DNA of 32,000 bases from Acaryochloris marina S15 (GCF_018336915.1 NZ_CP064923.1:3120001-3152000); one strand, 5' to 3'. Counted from the stretch's first letter, positions 1 to 12,222 are shown. Made by a program: numbers and translations. Notes: generated by a model from the letters alone, not told the origin.

Positions 1-1264
1 GCTCTCGCATATTGGTTTCATAGGCTAAGCCAATGACTCCCCTTGGAGTATCATTTGCAGGTGCTTTAAAGACACCTCTTGACTCATCTGTCCGACACCA
101 AATCCCCATCATATGCCCGCAGGGCGGCACCATAATCGGGCGTCCACCATTGCGAGGATTCGCGACTTTTATCCAGGGATAATAGATAGCCCCAAACATA
201 GAGCGGCGATTAAATTCATTCAGCCATTGAGCGACATGCTGGGGGCGCTGTTGTTCTGGGGGAACCGCAGTATTATCATTTTTGCCAATTTTGACAGGAG
301 GTGGATCAAGGACGGCCATCCGGTAAGCAGGGCCCGGAAAGGAATTCTCGCATAGGCTGACCATCATTTCCATGACTCCATGCACCTGATCCAGATCGAG
401 CAGGCCATTTTGATAGGCACGCATCAAGTCAGGACAGGCAATCATAGCCACTTCATCAATCTCGAATATGCCCTGCATGCCGGTGCGGTCATCCCGCTGC
501 CCCTGCAAATCACGAGGGAATCTTTCAGGCGTAGAGATTTGAGGCGGGGGGGTGATTTCAAAGGCTCCATTGGCTGGCCGACGAGATAGCGCTTGCCCAG
601 ACTGAGAGAGGTTCGCAACCGTGACGAATTCAGATTCTTCCAAAGCCGTGACGACATAGTCAGCAACAGCCGTGTCAACATCGGGATTCATGGTCAGGTA
701 TTCATACTTCTCTAGCTGTTCTCCACCCTGCCTAACGACAACGGTAAAGTATTCACCAGAGTTGAGAGGAGGCTCTTCATCGTCCTCCACTGGCTTGGGC
801 GCGCTCTCAAAGATAGCAACTTGAATCCGTGCATCTCCGGATGGAAGTGCGGGAGTATCCCCAGAGGCTTCTGGAAGCTTTAGACTAAATTTTAAGGAGG
901 GTCGGCCACTAAAAGTGGGTAATAAAGTTCCAGCTTCTTCTGGATCTGGTGCAGCAGATCCCGGTAATTGAGTGCCAATACTCGTCACCCAACAGCGTCC
1001 ACCGCCATTCAGAAACCAGCCTTGAACAGCGAAAGGTAAGTAGGCATCAAAATCAGTAAACCCATCCGAACCGGGTTTGGCAAAAAATTCCCGATATTGA
1101 TCCCAATTGGTAATCATCATCGGCTGAAACAATTCAGCATCTCCACGCACGTCTTCAGTAAACCCGATAAATCCGGCCACACTGAGACTGACACCTTCGA
1201 TCGGGCGACTTCCTCGGTCAACTTCTTCGACATAAACGCCAGGGGCAAAATAATCCAGGGCCAT
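1..1264 (-). CDS. Contractile tail sheath protein of an eCIS / phage-tail-like particle (first 421 codons; 3' end lies beyond the left window edge)
   Basis: Absent from the supplied ORF track because it runs off the edge. Manual minus-strand translation from ATG (complement of 1262-1264, GGAGGA 8 nt upstream) is stop-free down to position 2: MALDYFAPGVYVEEVDRGSRPIEGVSLSVAGFIGFTED...FLNGGGRCWVTSIG...FEIDEVAMIACPDLM...IYYPWIKVANPRNGGRPIMVPPCGHMMGIWCRTDESRGVFKAPANDTPRGV. The N-terminal APGVY.EE and C-terminal YYPW...PP.GH..G...R.D..RGV.KAPAN are hallmark contractile-sheath motifs (Afp2-4/Pvc2-4, phage sheath family). Track ORFs 113-355, 380-589 and 442-681 are shadow frames inside it. Confidence 0.9.
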   Translation of the reverse strand, partial: MALDYFAPGVYVEEVDRGSRPIEGVSLSVAGFIGFTEDVRGDAELFQPMMITNWDQYREFFAKPGSDGFTDFDAYLPFAVQGWFLNGGGRCWVTSIGTQLPGSAAPDPEEAGTLLPTFSGRPSLKFSLKLPEASGDTPALPSGDARIQVAIFESAPKPVEDDEEPPLNSGEYFTVVVRQGGEQLEKYEYLTMNPDVDTAVADYVVTALEESEFVTVANLSQSGQALSRRPANGAFEITPPPQISTPERFPRDLQGQRDDRTGMQGIFEIDEVAMIACPDLMRAYQNGLLDLDQVHGVMEMMVSLCENSFPGPAYRMAVLDPPPVKIGKNDNTAVPPEQQRPQHVAQWLNEFNRRSMFGAIYYPWIKVANPRNGGRPIMVPPCGHMMGIWCRTDESRGVFKAPANDTPRGVIGLAYETNMRE

Positions 1265-1304
1265 TGACTAGCTTCCTCCATTCGTTACGGGGTAAAGACT
1301 TGAA

Positions 1305-1865
1305 CTACTGCATAGGCGTGCTTTCACACCAATGATTCTTACTAGGTTTGGAAAGAGCAGGCGATCGTTCGGATACAAAAAATGGAATAGTGACGACTAC
1401 GTGTAGCGCCGGACGTAAGGGAGCACCTAACGCATGCCAGAGTTCGATTGGATTCATTAACCTTCCAGTGGAAATTCTCATCGGCAAACGGCCATAGCCT
1501 TGCAAGACTGGAGATAAATATTCAATCGGCAAGAATGAATGACGGGATAAGAGCATAAGGACTTCAGAAAGCAAATGTTGCTCTCCTAAGGCAGTAAAAT
1601 CCCAGACACTGACTAAGAAGGAAATATCAAACCACTTCAATGGCTTTGTCTGTTCTGCTTCTATATCCTGAATAGACTCTTCTTCCCCAGACAAATATTG
1701 TGGGGGGCAAGAATAGCTTTCACGAACGTCGTAACAGTAAAGGTTTACCCCAACTGCCATCTCCTGATCCACTTTGGGGTGGTTGAAAAATATCTGGTCC
1801 TTAGTGATGGAGGACGTTCCGTCAGACAGGATTTCTGCCAAGGTTTGAGTGACAGCAGGAATCAT
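1305..1865 (-). CDS. DUF4255 (Pvc16 N-terminal domain) protein, short form, eCIS Afp16/Pvc16-like
   Basis: 186-aa ORF ending 40 nt upstream of the sheath start on the same strand. N-terminus MIPAVTQTLAEILSDG...AVGVNLYCYDVRESY fits the DUF4255 pattern and parallels the N-terminus of the ORF at 4509. Confidence 0.8.
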   Translation of the reverse strand: MIPAVTQTLAEILSDGTSSITKDQIFFNHPKVDQEMAVGVNLYCYDVRESYSCPPQYLSGEEESIQDIEAEQTKPLKWFDISFLVSVWDFTALGEQHLLSEVLMLLSRHSFLPIEYLSPVLQGYGRLPMRISTGRLMNPIELWHALGAPLRPALHVVVTIPFFVSERSPALSKPSKNHWCESTPMQ

Positions 1866-2204
1866 AAATGAGCGCCATGAGGAAGCACAGCTCTACAGTA
1901 AGGAGTTAGTGAAGATATCGTTATTAGACTTTGGTCGGAATTATTGTTGTCCTTAAGCTACATCGGTTATTGCGACTTAAAACAAGTATTTTTATCCTTA
2001 ACTATTGAGAAATTTAAGTGAAACAAATTATTGATCGATGCCAGTTGACGAAACCCAAAAAACGAAACATTTCTTTACTAATCTTTGAGAAAAAGTGAGG
2101 CAAAACTGAAGCGTTTTTAGCTTTAGGATCATGCCAATATAAGTAAAATAAGCCCTTCAAGGAAGCTGTCTATACTATAAAGTCGAACAACCTATTGAAA
2201 TAAA

Positions 2205-2228
2205 AGAGATAGGTCATGACCTATCTCT
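2205..2228. promoter_or_regulatory. Perfect 24-bp palindrome AGAGATAGGTCA|TGACCTATCTCT in the divergent eCIS intergenic region. It is either an operator or a minus-strand intrinsic terminator.
   Basis: Checked by hand: the reverse complement is identical to the forward sequence. On the minus strand the stem is followed by TTTATTTCAATAGG (complement of 2190-2204), which is terminator-like. It also sits centrally (about 350-400 bp from each flanking start) in the spacer next to a LuxR-HTH regulator gene. Confidence 0.5.
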
Positions 2229-2246
2229 CATGCTGATCTAAAGGAG

Positions 2247-2274
2247 AGGATAAGGAGCAAAATTTATCCTTTTT
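2247..2274 (+). terminator. Weak plus-strand hairpin plus T-tract (AGGATAA-10 nt-TTATCCT-TTTT)
   Basis: 7-bp AT-rich stem (2247-2253 / 2264-2270), 10-nt loop, then TTTTGG. It lies 19 nt from the palindrome. The stem is weak, so confidence is low. Confidence 0.3.
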
Positions 2275-2615
2275 GGAAGAAAAATAAACTAATTTCAAAA
2301 GTCTATAACTGGATTTTCTATTCCCTGAAAGCTTTTGTATTCACCCGATACAAAAACTAGCTAGCCATATATCTAGACATTTAGCAAGAGAATTGAGCAA
2401 GTTTTTCAAGGACTTAAAAAAATCTAAATACCTATGAAAATATGAATAGAAAGTCGTAGGCTGAGTCATGAGTGCAAGTGGTTTGCTTATGAGATTTATT
2501 ACTACGTGTGAACAAATAATCTGGGAGACAACTCTCTCTAGTCTTGACTCAGTTTTGGAATTTTCAATCTTAAGAGAAGCGCACACTAGTTTTACAATTA
2601 TTCGTAAATTCTGGA

Positions 2616-3806
2616 GTGGAATTGGGGGCGACCATGCAGGTTAATCAACCCTTATCATTAAAAATTGAGTCTATTGGCCTAGGGGCTTTTTCAGATTGTC
2701 GCCAGTCCTTCTCAACACTGGATTTGAATCAGCATTGCCGGGGATTTTTAGATTTAATTGTTGATTATTTATCCCTCCCCAGCGCTTGGATTTTGCGACG
2801 TGACTTGGGTAATCAACTAAAGATTGAAATGGAGAAAGACGGTTCTAAACAGCCGGGTATACTCACTGCTAGTCACAATCGCACTTCTTTAAACGCTCTC
2901 CCATCCCCTTCGAACCTATGTTCTCAATTGGTTCTCGAATCCGCTACTGGTTTTGAGAAACCGGGATTACAGCACTGGGTTTACCAAGACTGGCAAGTCT
3001 ACAGTAGTTGTCTTTGTCGGCAACAGGGTCAGTACCTTTTATTTGCCTCAAGATCCCCTTTAACGATGCCAGAACAACATTGGGTAGACCGTCAAATCCT
3101 ATTAATCAGTGACTATTTTGATCTGCATTTAGCCTTTAGCCAACAGCAAGCTGCACTCTTAGCAAAACAGCAGCATCTTCATCAAACGACCCATCAACTG
3201 GGAACTCCATTGTCACTGATCACGCTTTACGCTGATATGTTGCGAGTCAAAACACCACCCGAAAGTGGTCAAGACTATCTAGTACCCTTGCAGCAAGCCG
3301 TTAAACAACTCCATCATCATCTCCAGGAGTTAGTGGATGACGAAGCAGAAGACAGCCCCATAATAGAGCAGTGTAATTTAAGAGAGTTGGTTGCTGAGAA
3401 TATACAGGCGCTTCAACCGCGCCTGCAAAGCCAGGAGATAGAAATCCACTGTCCACAAACGTCTGAGGTCATTGGGATAGACCGTTGGCAAATGCTTCAG
3501 GTTTTCGACAATCTGCTGAGTAATGCGCTGCATTTTAGTCCTCGTGGCAGCCAGATTACCCTCACTTGGCAGCGCTTCCAAACCGAAATTTTGATCGAGG
3601 TGAGAGATCAAGGACCAGGGTTATCACCGGAAGATTTGTGCTGTATGTTTTCCCCTTATTATTCACGACGAGATGGAGGGCGAGGATTAGGGCTAGCGAT
3701 CGCACAGCAAATCGTGTGTCGTCACCGGGGTCGACTGTGGGCGTCTAATTTGCCGGAGAGTGGTGCTCAGTTTTCGATTAGTTTGCCACAAGAGTCCAAG
3801 AATTAA
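2616..3806 (+). CDS. Soluble sensor histidine kinase (GAF-like N-terminal region + HisKA + HATPase_c)
   Basis: Start is GTG 2616 or ATG 2634. No hydrophobic TM segment. H-box HQLGTPLSLITLYADML; N-box LLSNALHFSP; G1 DQGPGL; G2 GGRGLGLAIAQQIV. The N-terminal ~190 aa has no recognisable kinase motif, and its assignment as a GAF-like sensor is inferred. Confidence 0.85.
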   Translation: MELGATMQVNQPLSLKIESIGLGAFSDCRQSFSTLDLNQHCRGFLDLIVDYLSLPSAWILRRDLGNQLKIEMEKDGSKQPGILTASHNRTSLNALPSPSNLCSQLVLESATGFEKPGLQHWVYQDWQVYSSCLCRQQGQYLLFASRSPLTMPEQHWVDRQILLISDYFDLHLAFSQQQAALLAKQQHLHQTTHQLGTPLSLITLYADMLRVKTPPESGQDYLVPLQQAVKQLHHHLQELVDDEAEDSPIIEQCNLRELVAENIQALQPRLQSQEIEIHCPQTSEVIGIDRWQMLQVFDNLLSNALHFSPRGSQITLTWQRFQTEILIEVRDQGPGLSPEDLCCMFSPYYSRRDGGRGLGLAIAQQIVCRHRGRLWASNLPESGAQFSISLPQESKN

Positions 3807-3820
3807 CGTTATCGGGGGAT

Positions 3821-4504
3821 TTGACCATGGGAAGCACTCAGCCACTATCCGTCGTTTTAGCAGATGATCAACCTACTTTTCGCCAGGGATTGCGAACGTT
3901 GCTGGGGTTTTACCAAGCCCAGGAAACGTTCCAATTTCACATTGTGGGTGAGGCAGCCTCAGCCGATCAGGCGATTAGTCTGGCGTTGGAACAGCATCCG
4001 ACTTTGCTGTTTCTGGATTTGGAACTACCAAAGGATGACGGCGTTGCCGCTCTGCAACACCTACGACAGCAGAACTACACAGGTAAGATTCTCGTCATTT
4101 CAGCCCATCAGGAAGATGAATGGGTGTTCCGTGCCATGCGAGCGGGGGCCGATGGGTATGTGTTTAAGTCTCAATTAGCCATGAATTTGCATCAAGCGAT
4201 TCAAACGGTGCTGAAGAATGAGGTTTTCCTACCGCCGAATGCGGCCACTGGTTTTTTCCGGTCTTTCCATTTCTATGAAGGCCGATCTGTTCAATCGGAA
4301 CAGACCCTCCATCTGACGGCCCGGGAAAAGCAGGTACTCCATTGGCTGGTTCAAGGGGCATCGAATCAAGCGATCGCAAATCACTTACACATTACGATCG
4401 CAACGGTGAAAGCCCACCTAACCGCTGTCTTTGAAAAGCTTGAGGTTAAAAGCCGCTCCCAGGCGATTGTCAAAGCCCTGAAGTTGGGTTTGGTGAACCC
4501 TTAA
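3821..4504 (+). CDS. NarL/FixJ-family response regulator (REC + LuxR-type HTH)
   Basis: The track start is TTG 3821. ATG 3827, preceded by GGGGGA, is more likely. REC motifs: VVLADDQ, LLFLDLELPKDDG (acceptor Asp region), ISAHQ. C-terminal HTH: LTAREKQVLHWLVQGASNQAIANHLHITIATVKAHL. The gene begins about 15-20 nt after the kinase stop. Confidence 0.9.
   Translation: MTMGSTQPLSVVLADDQPTFRQGLRTLLGFYQAQETFQFHIVGEAASADQAISLALEQHPTLLFLDLELPKDDGVAALQHLRQQNYTGKILVISAHQEDEWVFRAMRAGADGYVFKSQLAMNLHQAIQTVLKNEVFLPPNAATGFFRSFHFYEGRSVQSEQTLHLTAREKQVLHWLVQGASNQAIANHLHITIATVKAHLTAVFEKLEVKSRSQAIVKALKLGLVNP
4370..4377. repeat. HIP1 octamer GCGATCGC (one example of at least 11 copies in the window)
   Basis: Exact GCGATCGC copies located by eye at 3696, 4370, 4524, 12268, 15707, 17884, 19782, 22043, 22176, 25781 and 31708 (start coordinates). 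HIP1 over-representation is a known cyanobacterial genome signature. Confidence 0.9.
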
Positions 4505-4508
4505 AGCG

Positions 4509-5816
4509 ATGAGTAACTTTCTTGCGATCGCAACCGTAACTGCGGTTCTCCAACGCACCTTGCAAGCTGCCATTCAGGAAGATGTAGAAGGAGCCAGAGT
4601 CACCACCCTGCGTCCAGCCGACATCGGTAAGGGTACTCCGGTTTCTGGAGTGAATATTTACCTCTATCAAACATCCCTGAATACAGCCTGGAACAATACC
4701 GATCATCGGGGTCGGCATCGAAATAGCGATACGGCTAAACGATCTCGAACCGCCCTCGACCTGCACTATATGATCAGCGTCTATGGCAACGAAGTGGAGC
4801 TAGAACCCCAACGCTTATTGGGCAGTGTCATCCGCTCCCTTAGCGATGCTCAGGTAGTCCGAGAAGGGATGATTCAAGACACTCTTGCAGACTCCAACTA
4901 CGAATACTTAGCCGCCTCCGATTTGTGGCAGCAGGTGGAAGAGATTAACTTTATGCCCATGGATATGTCCTTGGAAGATCTATCCAAAGTCTGGTCGGTC
5001 TTCTTTCAAACCCCCTATGCCCTCTCCATTGCCTACCGTAGTACGGTCGTCATGATCGAAGGCCAGACCCCAGCTCAAAAAGCCCTGCCTGTAGCAAGTC
5101 GAGGCTTAGCTGTAGCCCCTTTTGCTGGCCAACCCCTGATCACAGAGATAGAGGCGATGACCGGAAAATTCGAGCCGATTGTGGCAAACTCCACGCTATT
5201 AATTCGGGGCAAGCGACTGCAGGGAAACCATACGGGCATCCGCATTGGGGCTGTCGATGTGGCCCCCTCTCAAGTGAGTGAAGGAGAACTGCTGTTGCCT
5301 TTAGTCCGCTTACCCTCCCACAGCCTGCGAGCTGGAGTCCAAAGTCTACAGGTTGTCCATCAATCCCAAACGCCAGCACCAACCCGACCCGGAGCTTGGC
5401 GTTCTGCTAGAGCTGCCTTGACTGCTCCCACCCACCAAGTCGGGATGGTCTCAAATGCATCTCCCTTTCTGTTGCGGCCAACAATTACCGACTTAGCCGT
5501 CACTACCCAAGGTCAAGAAGAAGAAGCTCGATCTGCTGCCATTCAAATCACAACAGACGTTACCATCGCTAGCCAGCAGCAGGTAACCCTGATTCTCAAT
5601 GAACGCACGGTTGAACATCCAGCTGCCTATCTGTTTGAAGCTCCTCATCGAACGACCGATACTCAATCCGTCACCTTTGAAGTGGAAGATGTGAAACCAG
5701 GAGAATATTTTGTCCGCATCCAAATCGACGGGGCAGAGAGTTCGTTGAAAATCGACCCAGAAGCAACCAGTCCAACATTTGGCAGCTTTGTGAGTCCCAC
5801 AGCCCAGATTATTTGA
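4509..5816 (+). CDS. DUF4255 (Pvc16_N) protein, long form with ~240-aa beta-rich C-terminal extension
   Basis: ATG lies 4 nt after the response-regulator stop. N-terminus MSNFLAIATVTAVLQRTLQAAI...GVNIYLYQTSLN is the DUF4255 pattern. The C-terminal half (ITEIEAMTG...LLIRGKRLQG...IRIGAVDV... and ...VTFEVEDVKPGEYFVRIQIDG) reads like two Ig/IPT-type beta domains; this is inference. Confidence 0.8.
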   Translation: MSNFLAIATVTAVLQRTLQAAIQEDVEGARVTTLRPADIGKGTPVSGVNIYLYQTSLNTAWNNTDHRGRHRNSDTAKRSRTALDLHYMISVYGNEVELEPQRLLGSVIRSLSDAQVVREGMIQDTLADSNYEYLAASDLWQQVEEINFMPMDMSLEDLSKVWSVFFQTPYALSIAYRSTVVMIEGQTPAQKALPVASRGLAVAPFAGQPLITEIEAMTGKFEPIVANSTLLIRGKRLQGNHTGIRIGAVDVAPSQVSEGELLLPLVRLPSHSLRAGVQSLQVVHQSQTPAPTRPGAWRSARAALTAPTHQVGMVSNASPFLLRPTITDLAVTTQGQEEEARSAAIQITTDVTIASQQQVTLILNERTVEHPAAYLFEAPHRTTDTQSVTFEVEDVKPGEYFVRIQIDGAESSLKIDPEATSPTFGSFVSPTAQII

Positions 5817-5825
5817 GGCAACGGT

Positions 5826-6074
5826 ATGAACATCTACCATATTCAAGTTCCCAACTTAGGCTATGTCCACAAAGCCTGGCAAGACGAGCAGCCTCGTTTT
5901 TGCACCCAACCGACACTAGCCAAACAGTGGAAGACCTTAGATAAAGCCTTAGACTTTGGCAACCAATCCCTCACCCCCAAGCTTAAAACCGCCTGGGAAT
6001 TGTGGCAGATGGCAGATGGCGAACTCACCCCCGTCATCCGTACCCATCATTCTGCAAATATCCCAACCCACTGA
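5826..6074 (+). CDS. Hypothetical small protein (82 aa) in the eCIS accessory operon
   Basis: ATG lies 9 nt after the DUF4255 stop, and its stop is 3-12 nt before the next ORF. I recognise no motif. The call rests on tight operon packing and normal composition. Confidence 0.5.
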   Translation: MNIYHIQVPNLGYVHKAWQDEQPRFCTQPTLAKQWKTLDKALDFGNQSLTPKLKTAWELWQMADGELTPVIRTHHSANIPTH

Positions 6075-6077
6075 GGT

Positions 6078-6317
6078 TTGCTGAGTATGACTAATGATTC
6101 CATAGAGCCTCGGATCGACTTAGAATCGGAAGCCCTGCAATACAAAAAACTGCACGAGTTAGGCAATTGTGCCCAAGCTGCAGGATTGATCGTGGGCCAT
6201 GGTCACCACCAGGGCAAGTATGAGATTTTACGACAAGGCCAAGCCCTAATGATGACACCCAAGGAAGCCCAAGCCTTTTTGCTTGAGCTATTGCAGTCGA
6301 TTGAGGCTTCGGAGTAA
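6078..6317 (+). CDS. Hypothetical small protein (79 aa from TTG 6078, or 76 aa from ATG 6087) in the eCIS accessory operon
   Basis: The stop TAA abuts the ATPase start (GTG 6318 / ATG 6324). No recognisable motif. Track ORF 6091-6357(-) is its antisense shadow. Confidence 0.5.
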   Translation: MLSMTNDSIEPRIDLESEALQYKKLHELGNCAQAAGLIVGHGHHQGKYEILRQGQALMMTPKEAQAFLLELLQSIEASE

Positions 6318-8318
6318 GTGCCCATGCAACAGGGGGATGCCGAATGGCAGGAGGCAAATTGGCTTTACTTCACCCAGGCTTTGCAACGGGTAAAGCAAGC
6401 CCTTCTTAATCAGGGGAAACAACTCGAATCTCAGCACCCATCCCCTGAGCCGATTGCTCCATTACCCCCATCGGAACTATCTCCTCCCTCTTATTTAGAG
6501 CAAATCAGTAAAGTCTTTGACCTAACCTCCTTTGCTCAGGATGTGCTGCTGCTCTGTATCGGCATGGAACTCGATCGAGGCTGGGAATCCATTTGTGCTC
6601 TAGCTCAAGGGAATCAAAGTCGGCCCTTCCCCACCCTAGGCTTAGCCCTAACTTGTTTTGCCGGATCGGATTGGAAAGGACTGCAGACCTTTCGGACCTT
6701 GCAAGAATGGCACTTAATTGAAGTAGGAGTGGGCACGGCTTTATCGACTCGGCCCCTATGCCTTGACCCCCATTTGTTACAGGTCCTGATGGGGGATAGC
6801 GAAATTGATCCGAGATTAAAGCCCTTGACCTTACCCTTTCCCTATCCCACGGAGTTGGTTCCTTCGCACCAAACGATTGCAGACCAAATGGTGCAAATCT
6901 GGTGGCGGGCTTTTCAACTGCAACAGTCGTTTCCCATCGTCCAACTTTGCGGACCTGATGTGGTCAGCCAGCAAGGAGTAACCCTGGCTGCTTGTAAACA
7001 AATAGGGTTGTGGCCGTTTGGACTAGCTGCAGAGACTTTACCTGTTGATCAACCTGGATTGCAGCTCATCCAAAAATTACTAGAACGAGAATGGCTATTG
7101 CATCATCGAGTGCTCGTCCTGCACTGTGATGGCTTGGACGACTCCTTGAAGGACCGAGATCGAGCATTAGCAAGTTTTATCGATCGTTTGGCTCTCCCTC
7201 TTATTATTTTGAACCGAGCCCGTCGCCCTCAGCATCTACGACTGATGGTCACCCATGAGGTTAGCTCGCCCAATCCCCAGGAACAACACCAAGTTTGGGA
7301 ACAGTCGTTGGGAGAATTCACAACGCAACTGAATGGTCAAGTAGAAGCATTAGTATCCCACTTCAATCTCAGTGCCACCAAAATCCAGGAGATCAGCCAT
7401 CAATTTCGACTGCAATCCCTAGCCAATAAAACCAGTGGGGAAACTCAGACTCCCTCCTCTCCAGGTGTCGTGTTGTGGCAAGCCTGTCGTCAACAGGCCC
7501 GGCCTCGACTCGATGAGCTAGCCCAGCGAATTGAATCCAGTAGTACTTGGGAAGATTTGGTTCTACCAGAAAAAGAGCAGCAAGTTCTAAAAGATATAGC
7601 AATCCATATCCGGCAGCGTCGGCAAGTGTATGAACAGTGGGGATTTCAAGGAAAAAGTCAGCGGGGGCTGGGGATTGCAGCCCTATTTGCTGGGGCCAGC
7701 GGTACGGGTAAGACTCTAGCAGCGGAGGTGCTAGCCAATACCCTGCAGCTAGATGTATATCGGATCGATCTGAGTTCGGTAGTGAGTAAATATATTGGCG
7801 AGACGGAGAAGAATTTGCGGCGGGTGTTTGACGCGGCGGAAGGGGGCGGCGTGATTCTTCTGTTTGACGAAGCCGATGCCCTCTTCGGCAAGCGATCGGA
7901 GGTAAAGGACAGTCATGATCGCCATGCCAATATTGAAGTGAGCTATCTATTGCAGCGGATGGAAGCGTATCGCGGTTTAGCGATCTTAACCACGAATCTT
8001 AAAGGTTCTCTCGATCAAGCGTTTCTACGTCGCATTCGGTTTATTGTTCAGTTCCCATTCCCAGATGCTAAGCAGCGAGCAGAGATTTGGCAGCATATTT
8101 TCCCGCAGCAAACTCCAACGAAGGGGTTAGATGCGAAAAAGCTGGCGAAGCTGAGTGTGTCGGGAGGGAATATTCGCAATATTGCTTTGAATGCAGCTTT
8201 CTTAGCAGCGGATGAGGGACAGCCTATAGGAATGCAGCACTTGTTGCAGGCGGCCCGTAGTGAGTATGTAAAGCTGGAGCGACCCCTGACTGATGCAGAG
8301 GTAAAAGGTTGGGTTTAG
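6318..8318 (+). CDS. AAA+ ATPase, eCIS Afp15/Pvc15-type (long non-ATPase N-region + single C-terminal AAA module)
   Basis: Walker A GASGTGKT, Walker B VILLFDEADALFGKR, then SYLLQRMEAY..LAILTTN and FLRRIRFIVQFPFPD (classic AAA second region of homology and lid). About 430 aa precede the ATPase module. Sits in the same operon as DUF4255. Confidence 0.9.
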   Translation: MPMQQGDAEWQEANWLYFTQALQRVKQALLNQGKQLESQHPSPEPIAPLPPSELSPPSYLEQISKVFDLTSFAQDVLLLCIGMELDRGWESICALAQGNQSRPFPTLGLALTCFAGSDWKGLQTFRTLQEWHLIEVGVGTALSTRPLCLDPHLLQVLMGDSEIDPRLKPLTLPFPYPTELVPSHQTIADQMVQIWWRAFQLQQSFPIVQLCGPDVVSQQGVTLAACKQIGLWPFGLAAETLPVDQPGLQLIQKLLEREWLLHHRVLVLHCDGLDDSLKDRDRALASFIDRLALPLIILNRARRPQHLRLMVTHEVSSPNPQEQHQVWEQSLGEFTTQLNGQVEALVSHFNLSATKIQEISHQFRLQSLANKTSGETQTPSSPGVVLWQACRQQARPRLDELAQRIESSSTWEDLVLPEKEQQVLKDIAIHIRQRRQVYEQWGFQGKSQRGLGIAALFAGASGTGKTLAAEVLANTLQLDVYRIDLSSVVSKYIGETEKNLRRVFDAAEGGGVILLFDEADALFGKRSEVKDSHDRHANIEVSYLLQRMEAYRGLAILTTNLKGSLDQAFLRRIRFIVQFPFPDAKQRAEIWQHIFPQQTPTKGLDAKKLAKLSVSGGNIRNIALNAAFLAADEGQPIGMQHLLQAARSEYVKLERPLTDAEVKGWV

Positions 8319-8603
8319 ATGAAAGACAGGTGATGGAAGCGTTACTCCCTAACCTGCCTAGGGCAGCAAAACTGAGGTATTTTGCCTACATAAGCCTCAT
8401 GATTTTCTAGCCTGAAACGATTTGAGTTATTGGGCATGCTAGTAGTATTCAGCTCGGTTTTCCAAAATGTACACCTACTGTCACCGGCAGAAGAAAAAAG
8501 CCCGTCATTTGGCTCAGAAAACCAAAATAGAGAAGCCCATCCAACAAGACTTAGGATAATCTCCAACCCGGCAAGAAAAATCCAATGAAGCTGGACTAGC
8601 AGA

Positions 8604-9008
8604 ATGGGCCAACCAACAACAAAAATAGTCATGGCCAATTGGCAAGCCAACAATCCACCAATTGGATTGTCAACGGATATGCTCGCTGAACTCAGCTACA
8701 GTGGCTTTGCCGCAGAAGAAGCAAAGAAACAACTCAATACTTATATTCAGCTCATTGATGCAGGCAATGCGGTTCAGCATCCGTCCGCTTTTATTGATGT
8801 CAAGCTTTACGTGGGCGGGCTAGATTTAGTCAGTATGTTTGTCGGCACTTACAGCGAGACAGGACGTAAGATCGACTCGATCATTGGTACAGGCGGCTCT
8901 AAAAAATCCAAACTGAGAAGTGTTGGTGGCACAAAAGGACATGGTTTTGTTGGTAACTATGTTCCCACCGTCGGCCAAGAAATCGCCCAAGATCTCCAAC
9001 AGCGATAG
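8604..9008 (+). CDS. Hypothetical protein (134 aa; start may be ATG 8631)
   Basis: ORF between the ATPase and the DUF4157 gene on the same strand. The sequence looks like a real protein (LSTDMLAELSYSGFAAEEAKKQLNTYIQLIDAGNAV...) but has no recognisable family motif. Confidence 0.45.
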   Translation: MGQPTTKIVMANWQANNPPIGLSTDMLAELSYSGFAAEEAKKQLNTYIQLIDAGNAVQHPSAFIDVKLYVGGLDLVSMFVGTYSETGRKIDSIIGTGGSKKSKLRSVGGTKGHGFVGNYVPTVGQEIAQDLQQR

Positions 9009-9137
9009 TGATCATATTTATGTTTGGGATAAGTAGCCCCTTAAGCTGGCAGAAAAATTAGCCCAATAGCGAGGTCCTGAGATTCATTTGAAGTGGGATA
9101 ATTCCCTTGACGATGGTATTGTACGGATTCTGGGGGA

Positions 9138-10763
9138 ATGTCAGTGCAGACGCATAAAAATCAGGTACAGCAAGGTAAAACAGACACTGTCCCTTCCTCT
9201 ACCCCACCCATTACGCAACCGACATCTCCATCACCCACTATTGAACCTAAGTCGAATGCTGAAGGTCTAGCAGAACATGCGGAACGGCTGAAAAAATTTC
9301 AAAGATTAGATTCAAATATGGTGCAGATGAGGCCCCCACGCTTAGGCCATAGCAATCCCATTCCTATTCAACCCAAACTGACGATTGGAGCACCCGGAGA
9401 TAAATATGAACAAGAGGCTGATCGCGTTGCCAAACGGGTCGTCACCCAAATTCATTCTCCCAAGAGCCTAGATACTCCATCATCCGCTCAACGCCAGGAT
9501 TTACCTGAACGAGATGAGCTAATGATGAAGCCTATTATTCAACGACACAACGGCCCTAAAGATGCGAATCCCAACCTAGAACAAGCCATTAACCAATCTA
9601 AAGGGGGTGGTCGTCCCCTGAATGATAAGATTCGCGGTCCAATGGAACAAGCTTTTGGAGCAAATTTTGGTAATGTGCGAGTCCATAACGATACAAAAGC
9701 CCATCAACTCAATGAATCTATCCAAGCGCGTGCCTTTACCACAGGCCAGGATCTCTTTTTTCGCCAAGGAGCCTACCAACCGGGCAACCGCGCAGGGCAA
9801 GAACTCCTAGCCCATGAGCTTACTCATGTCGTGCAGCAAAATGGGGTGTTGGTCAAGGAATCGAAATCCTCAAATGCTGATTTGCAAAAGTCAAATGCCG
9901 TTGTACAGGCACAATGGGTGGCAGGGAAAAAAGCTGAAACTTGGTATTGGGACCAAGTATTAGATGGTGTTACATGGTATATGGATTCATCTAATTCAAT
10001 GTGGTTTCAGATCACAAATGCTGAAGCAATAACGACTGGAACAGAGGAAGAATATACTACATTGCAGGGAAAGAAGAACAAGAAGAGTTGGATCGAGTGG
10101 AATGCTTTAAGTGTTGCACCTTTGGGTGGTGTTGGTGATCTTCTTTTTGAGTCAATGCAGTCGATGCAAAATGAGGATTTTGAATGGGGTTCAAATACTC
10201 TTGGAGGGCCGTTAGCGAAGAAACTGGCTACTCAACCGCCCAGAAAATATGGGAATAAAGCTACTCCCTTGGCTCTATGGCTATATAAAAAAGATGAGCC
10301 CGAACCTAAAGTATTTAACTGTTGGGAGGCAGTACTTATTGCAGCATTCAAAGCTGGTCTAATAGATAAAAATTATATTAAGAAAGCAATTGTTATTAAA
10401 GGTGGTGTTCCAGCTTTTGTCAAACCAATTATGGATGGCCCAAGTGGTAAGGCCGATGGCCCTCTGACTAAAGATAAGGTTGCAATTGCAAAGATCCCTT
10501 TTGCCATATCTACACCATTCGCAAAGGGAGTTGTAGTTGCTTTTGGTACTGATCCTGGCCACGTTGCGCTTGCTACAGGAAAACGAGTGTCAATAAAAAG
10601 TTCGGAAGTGGCTCAAGCGGTAGAGGCAGAAGAGGGAAATGAGATTTTGGAGTTGGATAGTGCGACGGAAGGTGTAAGCAAATCAACTATTGAGGAAACA
10701 ATGGCTCGAAATACTGCATATACCCGACAAGTTTGTTGGGGATCATTACCCAGTTCTTTCTAG
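9138..10763 (+). CDS. DUF4157 (HExxH, eCIS-associated) protein with a distinct C-terminal Cys/His module; candidate eCIS effector
   Basis: ATG preceded by GGGGGA. Disordered P/S/T/Q-rich first ~50 aa. DUF4157 signatures: LTIGAPGDKYEQEADRVA, RPLNDKIRGPMEQAFGANFGNVRVHNDTKA, AFTTGQDLFFRQGAYQP, LLAHELTHVVQQ (HELTH = 9813-9827). The C-terminal ~300 aa are unrelated to DUF4157 and contain KVFNCWEAVLIAAFKAG (Cys395, codon 10320-10322) and GTDPGHVALATGKR (His475, codon 10560-10562). Confidence 0.9.
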   Translation: MSVQTHKNQVQQGKTDTVPSSTPPITQPTSPSPTIEPKSNAEGLAEHAERLKKFQRLDSNMVQMRPPRLGHSNPIPIQPKLTIGAPGDKYEQEADRVAKRVVTQIHSPKSLDTPSSAQRQDLPERDELMMKPIIQRHNGPKDANPNLEQAINQSKGGGRPLNDKIRGPMEQAFGANFGNVRVHNDTKAHQLNESIQARAFTTGQDLFFRQGAYQPGNRAGQELLAHELTHVVQQNGVLVKESKSSNADLQKSNAVVQAQWVAGKKAETWYWDQVLDGVTWYMDSSNSMWFQITNAEAITTGTEEEYTTLQGKKNKKSWIEWNALSVAPLGGVGDLLFESMQSMQNEDFEWGSNTLGGPLAKKLATQPPRKYGNKATPLALWLYKKDEPEPKVFNCWEAVLIAAFKAGLIDKNYIKKAIVIKGGVPAFVKPIMDGPSGKADGPLTKDKVAIAKIPFAISTPFAKGVVVAFGTDPGHVALATGKRVSIKSSEVAQAVEAEEGNEILELDSATEGVSKSTIEETMARNTAYTRQVCWGSLPSSF

Positions 10764-10789
10764 AATAACTTGATTTAATTTTGATCGAG

Positions 10790-11731
10790 TTATTTAGGGG
10801 CTACGTCGTGGAAGTGAGTGTAATCAATATATCGATGCCCATCTTGAGTCTGATGGAAAATATCGATGAATTTATGATTCCAAATAATGTCCAATGCCCC
10901 ATAGGTATGGCGAGCATGCAGAGATTGAGCCACTGTATCGTCAATCCCAGTCAGTGTGACAATTAGCGTCGCCTTGGTGCGCTCTAGCGATTCAGCAGTC
11001 GCGCCATAGAGTGGACTGGATTCATCAATCGGATGCATAACCGTCCAAGTCAGGGTAAAGGAAGGAGTACGAGGACGCAGCAAATTGAGATTATACAAAT
11101 GCCGCATGGCATCTCCCTCAGTGCTAACTTCATCCTGGAGAAAATAGAGATTAATTTCAGCTTCCAGAATTTGATTGCGGCGCTGATTGGCAGTACGAAA
11201 CATCAAAGTCGGTACGCCATTGTAAGGCGTAATCACCGCAACGTGGCTAAACAATACCCGAGTTGTTGGTCGAGAAAATCTCGCAAATGCCAAACCCGTA
11301 ATAAGGGCCACACTGAGAATACTCGTAAAAGCTTCTACCGTAACCACAAAATTGGCGTATGCCGTTGTCGGGTGCATGGCTCCATAGCCAATGGCTCCCA
11401 ACGTTTGCACACTGAAAAAGAACGCATCCCAAAAAGATCCTGGAGTCGCATTGGCAATACAATCTCCACCTGCCAAGAAAGCCAAAGCAAACAGAACATT
11501 AATGACCAAATAGCCGCCCACCAAAATCAGCAGAAATCCCAACCAGGGAATCGTTAACAGTAAATGATAGGGATCGCGCCAATAGGTGTACCAAACGCCC
11601 AGGCCAGAAATACTAAATTTGCCATCCTTAAACTTCAGATAGCTTTTTTGAGGCAAACTTTGGGCTAATTTTCGGCGGAGGGACTGACGGCGGCGGGAAT
11701 TCACAGGCGAACGCATAGAATGGACAATCAC
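10790..11731 (-). CDS. Inward-rectifier-type potassium channel (KirBac family)
   Basis: Two TM helices flank a pore loop with selectivity filter TLGAIGYG, followed by the Kir-type cytoplasmic beta domain (RPTTRVLFSHVAVI...PTLMFRTANQR...). Start is GTG 11731 (GTGA overlap with the upstream stop) or ATG 11716. Confidence 0.9.
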   Translation of the reverse strand: MIVHSMRSPVNSRRRQSLRRKLAQSLPQKSYLKFKDGKFSISGLGVWYTYWRDPYHLLLTIPWLGFLLILVGGYLVINVLFALAFLAGGDCIANATPGSFWDAFFFSVQTLGAIGYGAMHPTTAYANFVVTVEAFTSILSVALITGLAFARFSRPTTRVLFSHVAVITPYNGVPTLMFRTANQRRNQILEAEINLYFLQDEVSTEGDAMRHLYNLNLLRPRTPSFTLTWTVMHPIDESSPLYGATAESLERTKATLIVTLTGIDDTVAQSLHARHTYGALDIIWNHKFIDIFHQTQDGHRYIDYTHFHDVAPK

Positions 11732-12222
11732 ATAGGAGCTGTGATTAAGAATTCAACATTATATTGGTTGATCAGGTTGCATGTATCGTGATCAACCTGA
11801 TTCGTGTCTGATAACTCTAAATTATAGAAATCAATATAGTCTGTATCAAAGTGAGGGCCAGCATGCCAAGTCCCCACCTCTAATTTGATAAAGCAGTCCC
11901 CAGGAATTTGAAATGCAGTAATCTGATCTAGAGCAGGTTGAGCAGCATCTCCTGGGGGAGCAACGGCCATCAGCCAGGGTTTACCAGCTAGGGAACCTAA
12001 ACACTGGGTACATTTTAGATGCCGCGTAATGCGCGAGAACTGTCGTCCCAGTTTTTCCAGCCGCATGATATAGAATCGAGGAATTCCGTTGTCTAGCTGC
12101 AATTGAGCATTGTCAGGACCATACACAGCCCCATCTTCGGAGGCAAATATGACCTGGCCGTAGGGCTGAAAAGCCTCTGGAGTAATGGGTTGAGCAATTA
12201 GTTGTTGTGTGGAACATTGCAT
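11728..12222 (-). CDS. Ureidoglycolate lyase/hydrolase-like (cupin-fold) protein
   Basis: N-terminus LIAQPITPEAFQPYGQVI and the internal RFYIMR...FSRITRHLKCTQ... resemble the ureidoglycolate lyase (AllA-like) family pattern. Assigned from memory of the family, not from a search. Confidence 0.7.
   Translation of the reverse strand: MQCSTQQLIAQPITPEAFQPYGQVIFASEDGAVYGPDNAQLQLDNGIPRFYIMRLEKLGRQFSRITRHLKCTQCLGSLAGKPWLMAVAPPGDAAQPALDQITAFQIPGDCFIKLEVGTWHAGPHFDTDYIDFYNLELSDTNQVDHDTCNLINQYNVEFLITAPM

What the first reader, a model, noticed from the sequence alone, without database searches (positions are those of the whole stretch)
2616..4511. A soluble histidine kinase and NarL-type regulator are cistronically fused to the eCIS accessory operon
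**What the sequence shows.** The kinase, regulator, DUF4255-long, two small ORFs and the ATPase follow each other with gaps of about 15, 4, 9, 3-12 and 0-6 nt. The regulator stop is at 4502-4504 and the DUF4255 ATG is at 4509. There is no room for a promoter or terminator, so the signalling pair should be co-transcribed with the assembly genes.

**Interpretation.** The kinase has no TM segment and carries a ~190-aa GAF-like input region, which implies an intracellular cue.

**Why it matters.** How eCIS production or firing is controlled is largely unknown. A dedicated two-component system placed between the structural operon and the ATPase/cargo operon suggests signal-gated, possibly autoregulated, particle assembly.
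Basis: partly seen in the sequence, partly recalled or inferred. Interest (0 to 1): 0.7.

Follow-up and report, generated by a model that had tools for sequence, protein, structure and literature searches.

The report
Two-component regulator of a cyanobacterial injection system
An intact cytoplasmic sensor kinase and NarL-type regulator sit inside an Acaryochloris phage-tail-like injection-system locus; this pairing was already noted in a 2021 survey, but here it comes with a conserved candidate DNA operator in front of the sheath operon, which makes the control circuit directly testable.

Summary
The window (Acaryochloris) encodes HK 2634-3806, RR 3827-4504, long DUF4255 4509-5816, two small ORFs and an AAA ATPase (to 8318). 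The gaps are 20, 4, 9, 3-12 and 0-6 nt. These genes run divergently from a short-DUF4255/sheath operon.

Both signalling proteins have all catalytic motifs, and the kinase has no TM segment. "GAF-like" is only weakly supported.

Among 64 informative cyanobacterial loci that carry the long DUF4255:
- 31 have the orthologous HK-RR pair at this position.
- 5 have the RR alone.
- 28 have neither.

The tight RR/DUF4255 junction is lineage-specific: gaps range from -4 to 647 nt, and some loci have 3-4 kb insertions.

The association is not new. Geller et al. 2021 reported GerE regulators beside 25.8% of eCIS loci, with a kinase upstream in 9% of those.

New here is a palindromic element, TTTCGACCAAAGTCTAATAAC (window 1920-1940). 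It lies 56-60 nt upstream of the structural operon's start codon, about 43 nt upstream of the predicted transcription start. It co-occurs with the RR and co-varies with the RR recognition helix. RR binding to it is inferred, not shown.

Verdict: a new member of a known kind, of moderate interest.

The parts
1..1264 (-). Sheath gene, 5' part. Its ATG is at 1264-1262 and the gene runs off the left end of the window. It is the second gene of the structural operon.
   Evidence: The translation MALDYFAPGVYVEEV... appears. tblastn finds 55-98% identical sheath N-termini in the related loci. Phage_sheath_1 is annotated at the same position in Nostoc PCC 7107.
1305..1865 (-). Short DUF4255 (Pvc16_N, 186 aa), the first gene of the structural operon. 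It is probably one of two cap proteins.
   Evidence: Pfam PF14065, E 9.9e-24. The Anabaena tCIS has a two-protein cap, Cis16A/Cis16B (PMC8894136).
1895..1900 (-). Predicted -10 box (TACTGT on the minus strand) of the structural-operon promoter. It aligns with TAATCT in other genera. This is inferred; no transcription start has been mapped.
   Evidence: It forms a conserved block at a fixed distance in the multi-genus alignment.
1920..1940 (-). Conserved palindromic element and candidate RR operator. On the minus strand it reads TTCCGACCAAAGTCTAATAAC. The half-sites are at 1924-1929 and 1934-1939, with the centre near 1931/1932. That places the centre 56 nt upstream of the short-DUF4255 ATG and at about -43.5 relative to the predicted start.
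   Evidence: - k-mer enrichment: present in 13-14 of 16 non-redundant spacers, against a null maximum of 5-8.
- Fixed distance of 56-60 nt from the start codon.
- PWM: one strong hit per locus and none in 487 kb of shuffled sequence.
- Metagenome scan: 7 of 8 exact 19-mer matches lie upstream of a short-DUF4255 gene.
- Co-variation with the RR recognition helix.
1866..2633 (.). Divergent intergenic spacer (768 nt) between the structural operon and the HK operon.
   Evidence: Several blocks are conserved among three Acaryochloris genomes. No Rfam family matches.
2634..3806 (+). Cytoplasmic histidine kinase (390 aa). Residues about 28-150 form a small alpha/beta sensor domain. A coiled-coil/DHp region follows, with phospho-acceptor His187, then the CA domain.
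   Evidence: - Pfam: HisKA 28 bits and HATPase_c 82.5 bits.
- H187 and the N, G1, F and G2 boxes are invariant in 35 homologues.
- No TM segment.
- AlphaFold models and Foldseek searches.
3827..4504 (+). NarL/FixJ-type response regulator (225 aa; REC plus GerE HTH). The phospho-acceptor is Asp64, in LLFLDLELP.
   Evidence: Pfam Response_reg 80 bits and GerE 70 bits. D14, D64, S92 and K114 are invariant or nearly so in 41 orthologues. The closest solved structures are NarL, VraR and DevR.
4509..5816 (+). Long DUF4255 (Pvc16_N plus a C-terminal extension, 435 aa), probably the second cap protein. It starts 4 nt after the RR stop codon.
   Evidence: Pfam PF14065, E 4e-45. 1761 homologues were found, almost all cyanobacterial. 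Its N-terminus is invariant.
5826..6074 (+). Small ORF s1 (82 aa), of unknown function.
   Evidence: No Pfam or NCBIfam hit. tblastn finds it conserved at this position in about 15 related loci.
6078..6317 (+). Small ORF s2 (76-79 aa), of unknown function.
   Evidence: No family hit. It is conserved between the long DUF4255 and the ATPase in most related loci.
6318..8318 (+). AAA+ ATPase (Afp15/Pvc15-like) with an N-terminal winged-helix domain. It is the last tightly packed gene of the unit.
   Evidence: Pfam AAA, E 5.5e-25, and WHD, E 1e-11. It is syntenic in the related loci.
9138..10763 (+). Protein with an eCIS_core (DUF4157) domain, a putative effector or toxin. It and ORF 8604-9008 follow the ATPase after a 285-nt gap.
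   Evidence: Pfam PF13699, E 6e-34.

Best explanation
This is a dedicated cytoplasmic two-component system that belongs to a cyanobacterial contractile-injection-system locus.

**Shown**
- The kinase and regulator are catalytically intact.
- They are orthologous to pairs at the same position in about half of the related loci.
- In this Acaryochloris genome they are packed with 0-20 nt gaps in front of the long DUF4255 cap paralogue, two small ORFs and the AAA ATPase.

**Inferred mechanism**
1. An intracellular signal acts on the small N-terminal alpha/beta domain of the kinase.
2. His187 autophosphorylates and passes the phosphoryl group to Asp64 of the regulator.
3. The phosphorylated regulator dimer binds the conserved palindrome TCGACC-AAAG-TCTAA (window 1924-1939).
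4. The palindrome is centred at about -43 of the divergent short-DUF4255/sheath promoter, which has a poor -35 box. From there the regulator most likely activates transcription of the structural operon, as a class II LuxR-type site would.
5. In this strain HK, RR, cap paralogue and ATPase are most likely one transcript. Regulator level and late assembly factors are then coupled.
For: **The system is intact.**
- Pfam domains.
- H-box His and the N, G1, F and G2 boxes are invariant in 35 kinases.
- RR residues D14, S92 and K114 are invariant in 41 orthologues; D64 is in 40 of 41.
- No TM segment.

**Synteny.**
- 31 of 64 informative loci have HK plus RR and 5 have the RR alone.
- Nostoc PCC 7107 has the same layout, with a kinase only 34% identical.
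- Decayed HK/RR fragments remain at the same position in L021, L031 and L063.
- RR and long-DUF4255 pairwise identities correlate (r = 0.68; Mantel 0 of 2000).

**Operon.** Gaps are 20, 4, 9, 3-12 and 0-6 nt, with no terminator-like site at the junctions. Four relatives have an overlapping ATGA junction between RR and DUF4255.

**Operator.**
- Strong k-mer enrichment.
- Fixed position 56-60 nt from the start codon.
- One PWM hit per locus, always facing the structural operon, and no hits in shuffled DNA.
- Present in 25 of 30 RR-bearing loci against 4 of 13 RR-less loci with a visible structural promoter (Fisher p = 0.0014, not corrected for phylogeny).
- All 25 operator loci have the recognition helix ATVKAH. 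All 5 RR loci without it have GTVKAY, with other palindromes at the same place.
- 7 of 8 exact matches in the metagenome collection lie upstream of a short-DUF4255 gene. Divergent HK or RR genes are present wherever the flank is visible, and both RRs that are visible there (L087, L093) have ATVKAH helices.
Against: - There is no transcript, transcription-start or binding data, so both the operon and RR-operator binding are inferences.
- The operator also occurs in four Coleofasciculus loci with no RR within the fetched flank. Either the RR acts in trans there or another factor binds the site.
- The helix/operator co-variation may reflect only one or two evolutionary events.
- About 44% of related loci lack the pair altogether, so it is not essential to the machine.
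- Kinase homologues also occur away from injection-system genes.
- In this strain the operator lies about 690 nt from the kinase ATG, so autoregulation through the same site is doubtful.
- If the real start site lies upstream of the palindrome, the regulator would repress rather than activate.
Confidence: 0.6

Rival explanations
1. The pair is a true injection-system regulator, but the conserved palindrome belongs to another factor or is simply core promoter or leader sequence. The RR would then act elsewhere, for example on its own operon or on the effector genes.
For: - The operator is present in four loci with no RR nearby.
- The whole 85-nt region down to the start codon is conserved, including a CTGTACAG block. 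That pattern could reflect a conserved promoter or 5' leader rather than a regulator site.
Against: - The element is a dyad of the size and form used by GerE/LuxR-type dimers.
- It co-varies with the RR recognition helix.
- It occurs in loci that have the RR alone, without a kinase: L027, L033, L062 and L073.
- No enriched motif was found in the RR-to-DUF4255 or HK-to-RR gaps that could serve as an alternative target.
Confidence: 0.22
2. HK and RR are co-located, but the downstream genes (long DUF4255 to ATPase) are mainly transcribed from an internal promoter inside the RR or HK coding sequence. The tight junction would then be gene compaction, not functional coupling.
For: - In most relatives a 30-650 nt spacer separates the RR from the long DUF4255. 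In Laspinema and Phormidium opposite-strand genes are inserted there. Independent transcription of the downstream unit is therefore the common state.
- Weak promoter-like matches lie inside the HK coding sequence at 3337-3364 and 3485-3512.
Against: - Those matches score 9 of 12 and are fewer than shuffled sequence gives.
- Overlapping ATGA or 4-13 nt junctions arose in several lineages, which is typical of translational coupling within one mRNA.
Confidence: 0.25
3. The pair is a neighbour that regulates an unrelated process and is kept next to the locus by drift or hitch-hiking.
For: - Homologous kinases, with or without an RR, occur in unrelated contexts: Anthocerotibacter and a metagenome contig.
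- 28 of 64 related loci lack the pair.
Against: - The same position and orientation recur across many genera, with RR identity of 50-66%.
- The unlinked RRs carry the same ATVKAH helix, which fits trans-acting copies.
- Geller et al. found GerE statistically enriched at eCIS loci.
Confidence: 0.05

Closest known systems
eCIS-associated GerE regulator with an upstream histidine kinase (Geller et al. 2021, Nat Commun, PMC8213781)
   Same: A REC-GerE regulator gene lies beside an eCIS locus, next to afp16/DUF4255, with a kinase gene upstream. The authors proposed that the two form a two-component system controlling the operon.
   Different: - That report is a Pfam co-occurrence statistic across phyla, with examples such as Pelobacter (PAS-HK) and Leeuwenhoekiella (HisKA_3).
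- It gives no operator, no promoter model and no analysis of the cyanobacterial clade.
- Here the kinase is a short soluble HisKA type with an unclassified sensor domain.
- No experimental follow-up was found in the library, including a 2026 review.
NarL, VraR and DevR/DosR family response regulators
   Same: REC plus GerE architecture. They are the best matches among solved structures (NarL 1a04 at E 5e-30, VraR, DevR 3c3w). The target is dyad-symmetric. From memory, the DosR box core GGACTTTAGTCC resembles AGACTTTGGTC.
   Different: - The NCBIfam NarL score is 142 against a cut-off of 250, so this is not a NarL equivalog.
- The partner kinase is HisKA (PF00512), not the HisKA_3 type usual for this family.
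- The target regulon is a phage-tail-like machine.
LuxR/lux-box class II activation (site centred near -42.5; from memory)
   Same: A dyad site for a GerE/LuxR-type HTH dimer overlaps a weak -35 region. Here the predicted centre is about -43.5.
   Different: The regulator is controlled by phosphorylation, not by an acyl-homoserine lactone. The transcription start here is predicted, not mapped.
Anabaena PCC 7120 thylakoid-anchored CIS (Weiss et al. 2022, PMC8894136)
   Same: It is a cyanobacterial CIS with two DUF4255 cap proteins (Cis16A/B) and DUF4157 effectors, and its function is linked to stress.
   Different: That paper does not mention a regulator, a kinase or a two-component system. Acaryochloris is unicellular. 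Whether this locus makes a thylakoid-anchored or a released particle was not tested.
DosS/DosT-DosR of Mycobacterium (soluble GAF-sensor kinase plus NarL-type regulator)
   Same: A soluble kinase with an N-terminal GAF-type sensor is paired with a NarL-family regulator that binds a palindrome. DosS GAF-A is among the Foldseek hits (TM about 0.5).
   Different: The fold match is weak and no haem-binding residues were tested. The sensor here is about 120 residues, with a single conserved Cys35.

Membership tests
Classical two-component system (histidine kinase plus response regulator) | The kinase has an H-box His and N, G1, F and G2 boxes. | tested here: met
   HisKA plus HATPase_c. H187, N293/N297, D325-G327-G329, F339 and G349-G351-G353 are invariant in 35 homologues.
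Classical two-component system (histidine kinase plus response regulator) | The receiver domain has the acidic pocket, the phospho-acceptor Asp, and the conserved Ser/Thr and Lys. | tested here: met
   D14, D64, S92 and K114 are conserved in 40-41 of 41 orthologues.
Classical two-component system (histidine kinase plus response regulator) | Phosphotransfer between the two proteins. | not testable with these tools
   The only evidence is adjacency and correlated divergence (HK against RR, r = 0.89).
NarL/FixJ (LuxR/GerE-type) response regulators | REC domain followed by a GerE helix-turn-helix. | tested here: met
   PF00072 at 80 bits and PF00196 at 70 bits. NarL, VraR and DevR are the top matches among solved structures.
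NarL equivalog (NCBIfam NF007935) | Score above the curated cut-off of 250 bits. | tested here: not met
   142 bits. The protein belongs to the NarL family but is not NarL.
HPK7-type kinases (HisKA_3), the usual partners of NarL-type regulators | HisKA_3 dimerisation/phospho-acceptor domain. | tested here: not met
   Pfam gives HisKA (PF00512) at 28 bits against a cut-off of 26.9, and no HisKA_3 hit.
GAF-domain sensor | Sequence or fold match to GAF. | tested here: inconclusive
   - There is no Pfam hit in residues 1-176.
- The domain model has pLDDT 85.
- Its best Foldseek matches are roadblock/Rag-CTD/MglB and GAF domains, at E 2e-4 to 7e-3 and TM 0.45-0.6.
- A phmmer search of 1.84 billion representatives finds only 2 relatives.
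eCIS-associated GerE regulator (Geller et al. 2021) | A GerE-domain gene adjacent to eCIS core genes, optionally with a kinase gene upstream. | tested here: met
   The RR lies between the short-DUF4255/sheath genes and the long-DUF4255/AAA/DUF4157 genes, with the HK immediately upstream.
Extracellular/thylakoid contractile injection system locus (Afp/PVC/tCIS-like) | Sheath, Afp16-like DUF4255, Afp15-like AAA ATPase and DUF4157 effector-associated domain. | tested here: met
   Tube, baseplate and spike genes lie outside the window, but they are seen in the Nostoc PCC 7107 and Coleofasciculus relatives.

The most novel reading that the evidence does not exclude
The regulator and the 21-nt palindrome form a conserved signal-to-promoter circuit for cyanobacterial contractile injection systems. 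Phosphorylated RR would bind at about -43 of the sheath-operon promoter and switch particle production on in response to an intracellular, possibly redox or stress, cue. That cue would be read by a fast-evolving sensor domain with one conserved cysteine. In genomes where the pair is unlinked, the same RR type would act in trans on loci carrying the operator. This would be the first defined operator and regulon logic for any eCIS/tCIS outside the RfaH-type antiterminators.
Probability: 0.45. Interest if true: 0.6.

Novelty: new member of a known kind. Interest (0 to 1): 0.45.

Why it matters
Cyanobacterial injection systems are abundant: the Anabaena paper cites about 40% of sequenced cyanobacterial genomes. 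In Anabaena their function is tied to stress-induced cell lysis. No regulator, signal or promoter has been defined for them.

This locus offers three concrete handles:
- a soluble kinase;
- a regulator with a clear phospho-acceptor, Asp64;
- a short conserved dyad at a fixed position in front of the sheath operon.

With these, the question of what turns particle production on can be addressed with standard EMSA, reporter and knockout experiments. The operator can also be used to predict which loci in a genome obey the same regulator.

The general idea of a GerE regulator plus kinase beside eCIS loci was already published, so the value lies in the specific, testable circuit rather than in the association.

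Tried and rejected
- **Inverted repeat at 2204-2229** (11-bp stem), the most eye-catching feature of the spacer. It is not conserved in the two other Acaryochloris genomes, so I rejected it as an operator or terminator of general relevance.
- **Promoter and terminator consensus scans**. Nothing lies at the junctions and counts are not above shuffled expectation. The + strand match at 2570-2598, upstream of the kinase, is not conserved in L002.
- **Rfam scan of 1-12000** at E <= 1 found nothing.
- **k-mer enrichment in the RR-to-DUF4255 and HK-to-RR gaps** gave nothing beyond chance. No second operator could be proposed.
- **Possible half-site** AAAAGTCTATAAC near 2297-2312. It is conserved within Acaryochloris but scores below the PWM threshold, so I left it as a lead only.
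- **Sensor domain alone in the search for homologous proteins** returned no hits. This is odd, since full-length relatives exist.
- **Exhaustive single-sequence search of the sensor domain** returned only 2 representatives. Its wider distribution is therefore unresolved.
- **Full-length Foldseek search** was dominated by the kinase core and says nothing about the sensor.
- **Tested and not upheld:** the idea that kinase orthologues are always linked to eCIS genes. Of 4 looked up, 1 was fully linked, 1 was near a DUF4157 gene only, and 2 were unlinked.


Full report
**Observation**

The window is cyanobacterial. It has 11 HIP1 sites and 45.6% GC. It comes from Acaryochloris: the long DUF4255 protein is 92-93% identical to proteins of A. 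marina MBIC11017 and NIES-2412.

On the minus strand a sheath gene (ATG at 1264, running off the left end) follows a short DUF4255/Pvc16_N gene (1865-1305). On the plus strand, after a 768-nt spacer, the genes are:
- a histidine kinase (2634-3806);
- a REC-GerE response regulator (3827-4504);
- a long DUF4255 (4509-5816);
- two small ORFs (5826-6074 and 6078/6087-6317);
- an AAA ATPase (6318/6324-8318).

After a further 285 nt come a 134-aa ORF and a DUF4157/eCIS_core protein.

The ATG at 2634 is supported by orthologue N-termini. The ATG at 4509 is supported by the invariant MSN(F/Y/H)LAIAT start of the family.

**The proteins**

The kinase carries every catalytic motif. His187 and the N, G1, F and G2 boxes are invariant in 35 homologues. 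It has no hydrophobic segment that could span a membrane.

Residues about 28-150 have no Pfam match. Modelled alone (pLDDT 85, pTM 0.79) they form a helix, two strands, helices, three strands and a helix. Foldseek relates this only weakly to roadblock/MglB/Rag C-terminal domains and to GAF domains, including DosS GAF-A and cyanobacteriochrome GAFs. TM scores are 0.45-0.6 and E-values 2e-4 to 7e-3. "GAF-like" is therefore a reasonable label for the topology but not an established membership.

The sensor evolves fast. An exhaustive phmmer search of 1.84 billion representatives finds two relatives. One cysteine (C35) is kept in 30 of 35 homologues.

The regulator is a standard NarL/FixJ-family protein. 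Asp14, Asp64, Ser92 and Lys114 are conserved in 40-41 of 41 orthologues. The pairing of a HisKA-type kinase with a NarL-type regulator, rather than a HisKA_3 type, is slightly unusual.

**Is the association real?**

I aligned 21 long-DUF4255 proteins and used the alignment to fetch 80 loci from one-genome-per-species contigs. I then mapped all window proteins onto them by tblastn.

Of 64 loci with enough upstream sequence:
- 26 have an orthologous HK-RR pair directly upstream of the long DUF4255 on the same strand, usually divergent from short DUF4255 and sheath.
- 5 have the pair displaced by 3-4 kb (Laspinema and Phormidium). In Laspinema L007, the one insertion examined, three opposite-strand methyltransferase genes fill the gap.
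- 5 have the regulator alone.
- 28 have neither.

Of the 28, three retain HK or RR fragments at the expected place, and one (L010) may simply be too short to judge.

Nostoc PCC 7107 shows the identical layout with a kinase only 34% identical. RR identity across genera is 50-66%, while the kinase is conserved mainly in its catalytic half.

The pair is nonetheless dispensable for the machine. Homologous pairs also occur away from structural genes.

**Co-transcription**

Gaps of 0-20 nt, with no terminator-like hairpins at the junctions, make a single HK-to-ATPase transcript the simplest model for this strain. Overlapping ATGA junctions between RR and DUF4255 in four other loci point the same way.

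The junction is not conserved, however. Gaps of 30-650 nt are the rule elsewhere, so in most relatives the cap/ATPase unit probably has its own promoter. An internal promoter within the Acaryochloris coding sequences cannot be excluded by sequence alone.

**A candidate operator**

I looked for shared words in the divergent spacers of 16 non-redundant loci. One sequence stood far above the shuffled controls: it was present in 13-14 of 16, against a null maximum of 5-8.

Read in the direction of the structural operon, the consensus is AAAGTTTCGACCAAAGTCTAATAACCAGC. Its properties are:
- It lies 56-60 nt upstream of the short-DUF4255 start codon in genera from Acaryochloris to Nostoc.
- It is an imperfect dyad (TCGAC-N4-GTCTA) that becomes a perfect TTAGAC-N4-GTCTAA in three loci.
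- A position weight matrix finds exactly one strong hit per locus, always facing the structural operon, and none in 487 kb of shuffled sequence.
- An exact 19-mer scan of the metagenome collection gave 8 hits. Seven lie upstream of a short-DUF4255 gene, with a divergent kinase or regulator wherever the flank is visible. The eighth is on a high-GC, non-cyanobacterial contig.

About 18-21 nt downstream lies a conserved TAnnnT box: TAATCT in most genera, and TACTGT at 1900-1895 in the window. If this is the -10 box, the dyad is centred near -43.5 over a poor -35 region. That is the geometry of a class II activator site such as the lux box (my recollection).

**Link between operator and regulator**

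This link is circumstantial but consistent.
- The operator is present in 25 of 30 RR-bearing loci whose structural promoter is visible, including all four such RR-only loci. It is present in 4 of 13 RR-less loci (Fisher p = 0.0014, uncorrected for phylogeny).
- All 25 operator-bearing loci encode a regulator with the recognition helix ATVKAHLTA.
- The five RR-bearing loci without the operator encode GTVKAYL(R/T) and carry other palindromes (for example TTCTATAGAA) at the same position.
- By my recollection of the NarL-DNA structure, the changed positions correspond to DNA-contacting residues.
- The two metagenome loci with both features visible also have ATVKAH.
- The RRs of two kinase-regulator pairs that are not next to structural genes also have ATVKAH. 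This fits trans-acting copies and could explain the four Coleofasciculus loci that have the operator but no local regulator.

None of this is binding data.

**Comparison with the literature**

Geller et al. [quoted passage not shown] They found a histidine kinase upstream in 9% of GerE-containing operons and suggested a two-component system. Their tables list REC-GerE plus kinase genes next to afp16/DUF4255 in Pelobacter and Leeuwenhoekiella.

A 2026 review still cites only that paper for this point. Chen et al. 2019 and the Anabaena tCIS paper do not mention such regulators. Full-text searches found no work on cyanobacterial CIS regulators.

The Anabaena paper does show that the cap there consists of two DUF4255 proteins, Cis16A and Cis16B. 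This probably explains the short and long paralogues here. It also means the unit downstream of the regulator is not purely accessory.

**Verdict**

The association itself is already published, so the finding is a new, well-resolved member of a known kind.

The tight cistronic fusion is a lineage-specific detail. "GAF-like" is weakly supported.

The added value from this analysis is a specific promoter and operator model with a matching recognition-helix signature. It turns the question of how these particles are switched on into a set of simple experiments.

Noticed in passing
window 2204-2229: A near-perfect 11-bp-stem inverted repeat (GAGAGATAGGTCA/TGACCTATCTCTC) lies in the divergent spacer. 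It is absent from the two other Acaryochloris genomes, so it is strain-specific. Its origin is unknown; it may be a small mobile palindrome.
   Followed up: partly
window 1305-1865 (-) and 4509-5816 (+): There are two DUF4255/Pvc16_N paralogues, one heading each divergent operon. The long one has a C-terminal extension with a weak IPT/TIG match. They probably correspond to the two-protein cap (Cis16A/Cis16B) of the Anabaena tCIS.
   Followed up: partly
window 5826-6074 and 6078-6317: Two small ORFs (82 and about 77 aa) with no family match are conserved between the long DUF4255 and the ATPase. s2 is present in most related loci and s1 in about 15. Their function is unknown.
   Followed up: no
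window ~1878-1893 (minus strand); related loci, same position: A conserved block CTGTACAGCCT, containing the 8-nt palindrome CTGTACAG, sits around the predicted transcription start of the structural operon in most genera. In the window it reads CTGTAGAGCTGTG. It could be a second regulatory site or a start-site element.
   Followed up: no
L006-L009 and L012, between RR and long DUF4255: In Laspinema and Phormidium a 3-4 kb insertion separates the regulator from the long DUF4255. In L007 it consists of three tandem SAM-methyltransferase genes on the opposite strand.
   Followed up: partly
L021 -627..-319, L031 -495..-184 and L063 -456..-256, relative to the long DUF4255 start: Short fragments matching only part of the kinase (50% identity) or of the regulator (49%) remain where intact genes sit in other loci. 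These look like decayed remnants of the pair.
   Followed up: no
L049, L061 and L058, ~70 nt upstream of the short DUF4255: Loci whose regulators carry the variant helix GTVKAY have different palindromes (TTCTATAGAA, TTCTATGGAA, ACTTAAGT) at the position of the main operator. This suggests the site and the protein diverged together.
   Followed up: partly
L004, L006, L012, L015, L017, L025 and L064, kinase side of the operator: In short-spacer loci a conserved TTTAAAA-N3-4-TGTGTG block directly follows the operator on the kinase side. It may be an UP-like element for the structural promoter or part of the kinase promoter. It is not present in the window.
   Followed up: no
L044 ~6935-7085: A tandem array of units of about 20 nt (TTTGAATTCATACCTGT...) lies immediately upstream of the sheath gene.
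   Followed up: no
window 10790-11731 (-): A prokaryotic inward-rectifier-type K+ channel gene (IRK_C plus Ion_trans_2) lies directly after the DUF4157 gene on the opposite strand. It is probably unrelated to the injection system.
   Followed up: no
kinase residue 35 (window ~2736-2738): A single cysteine in the first helix of the sensor domain is conserved in 30 of 35 homologues, although the domain is otherwise very variable. It may be a redox-sensitive or ligand-binding residue.
   Followed up: no
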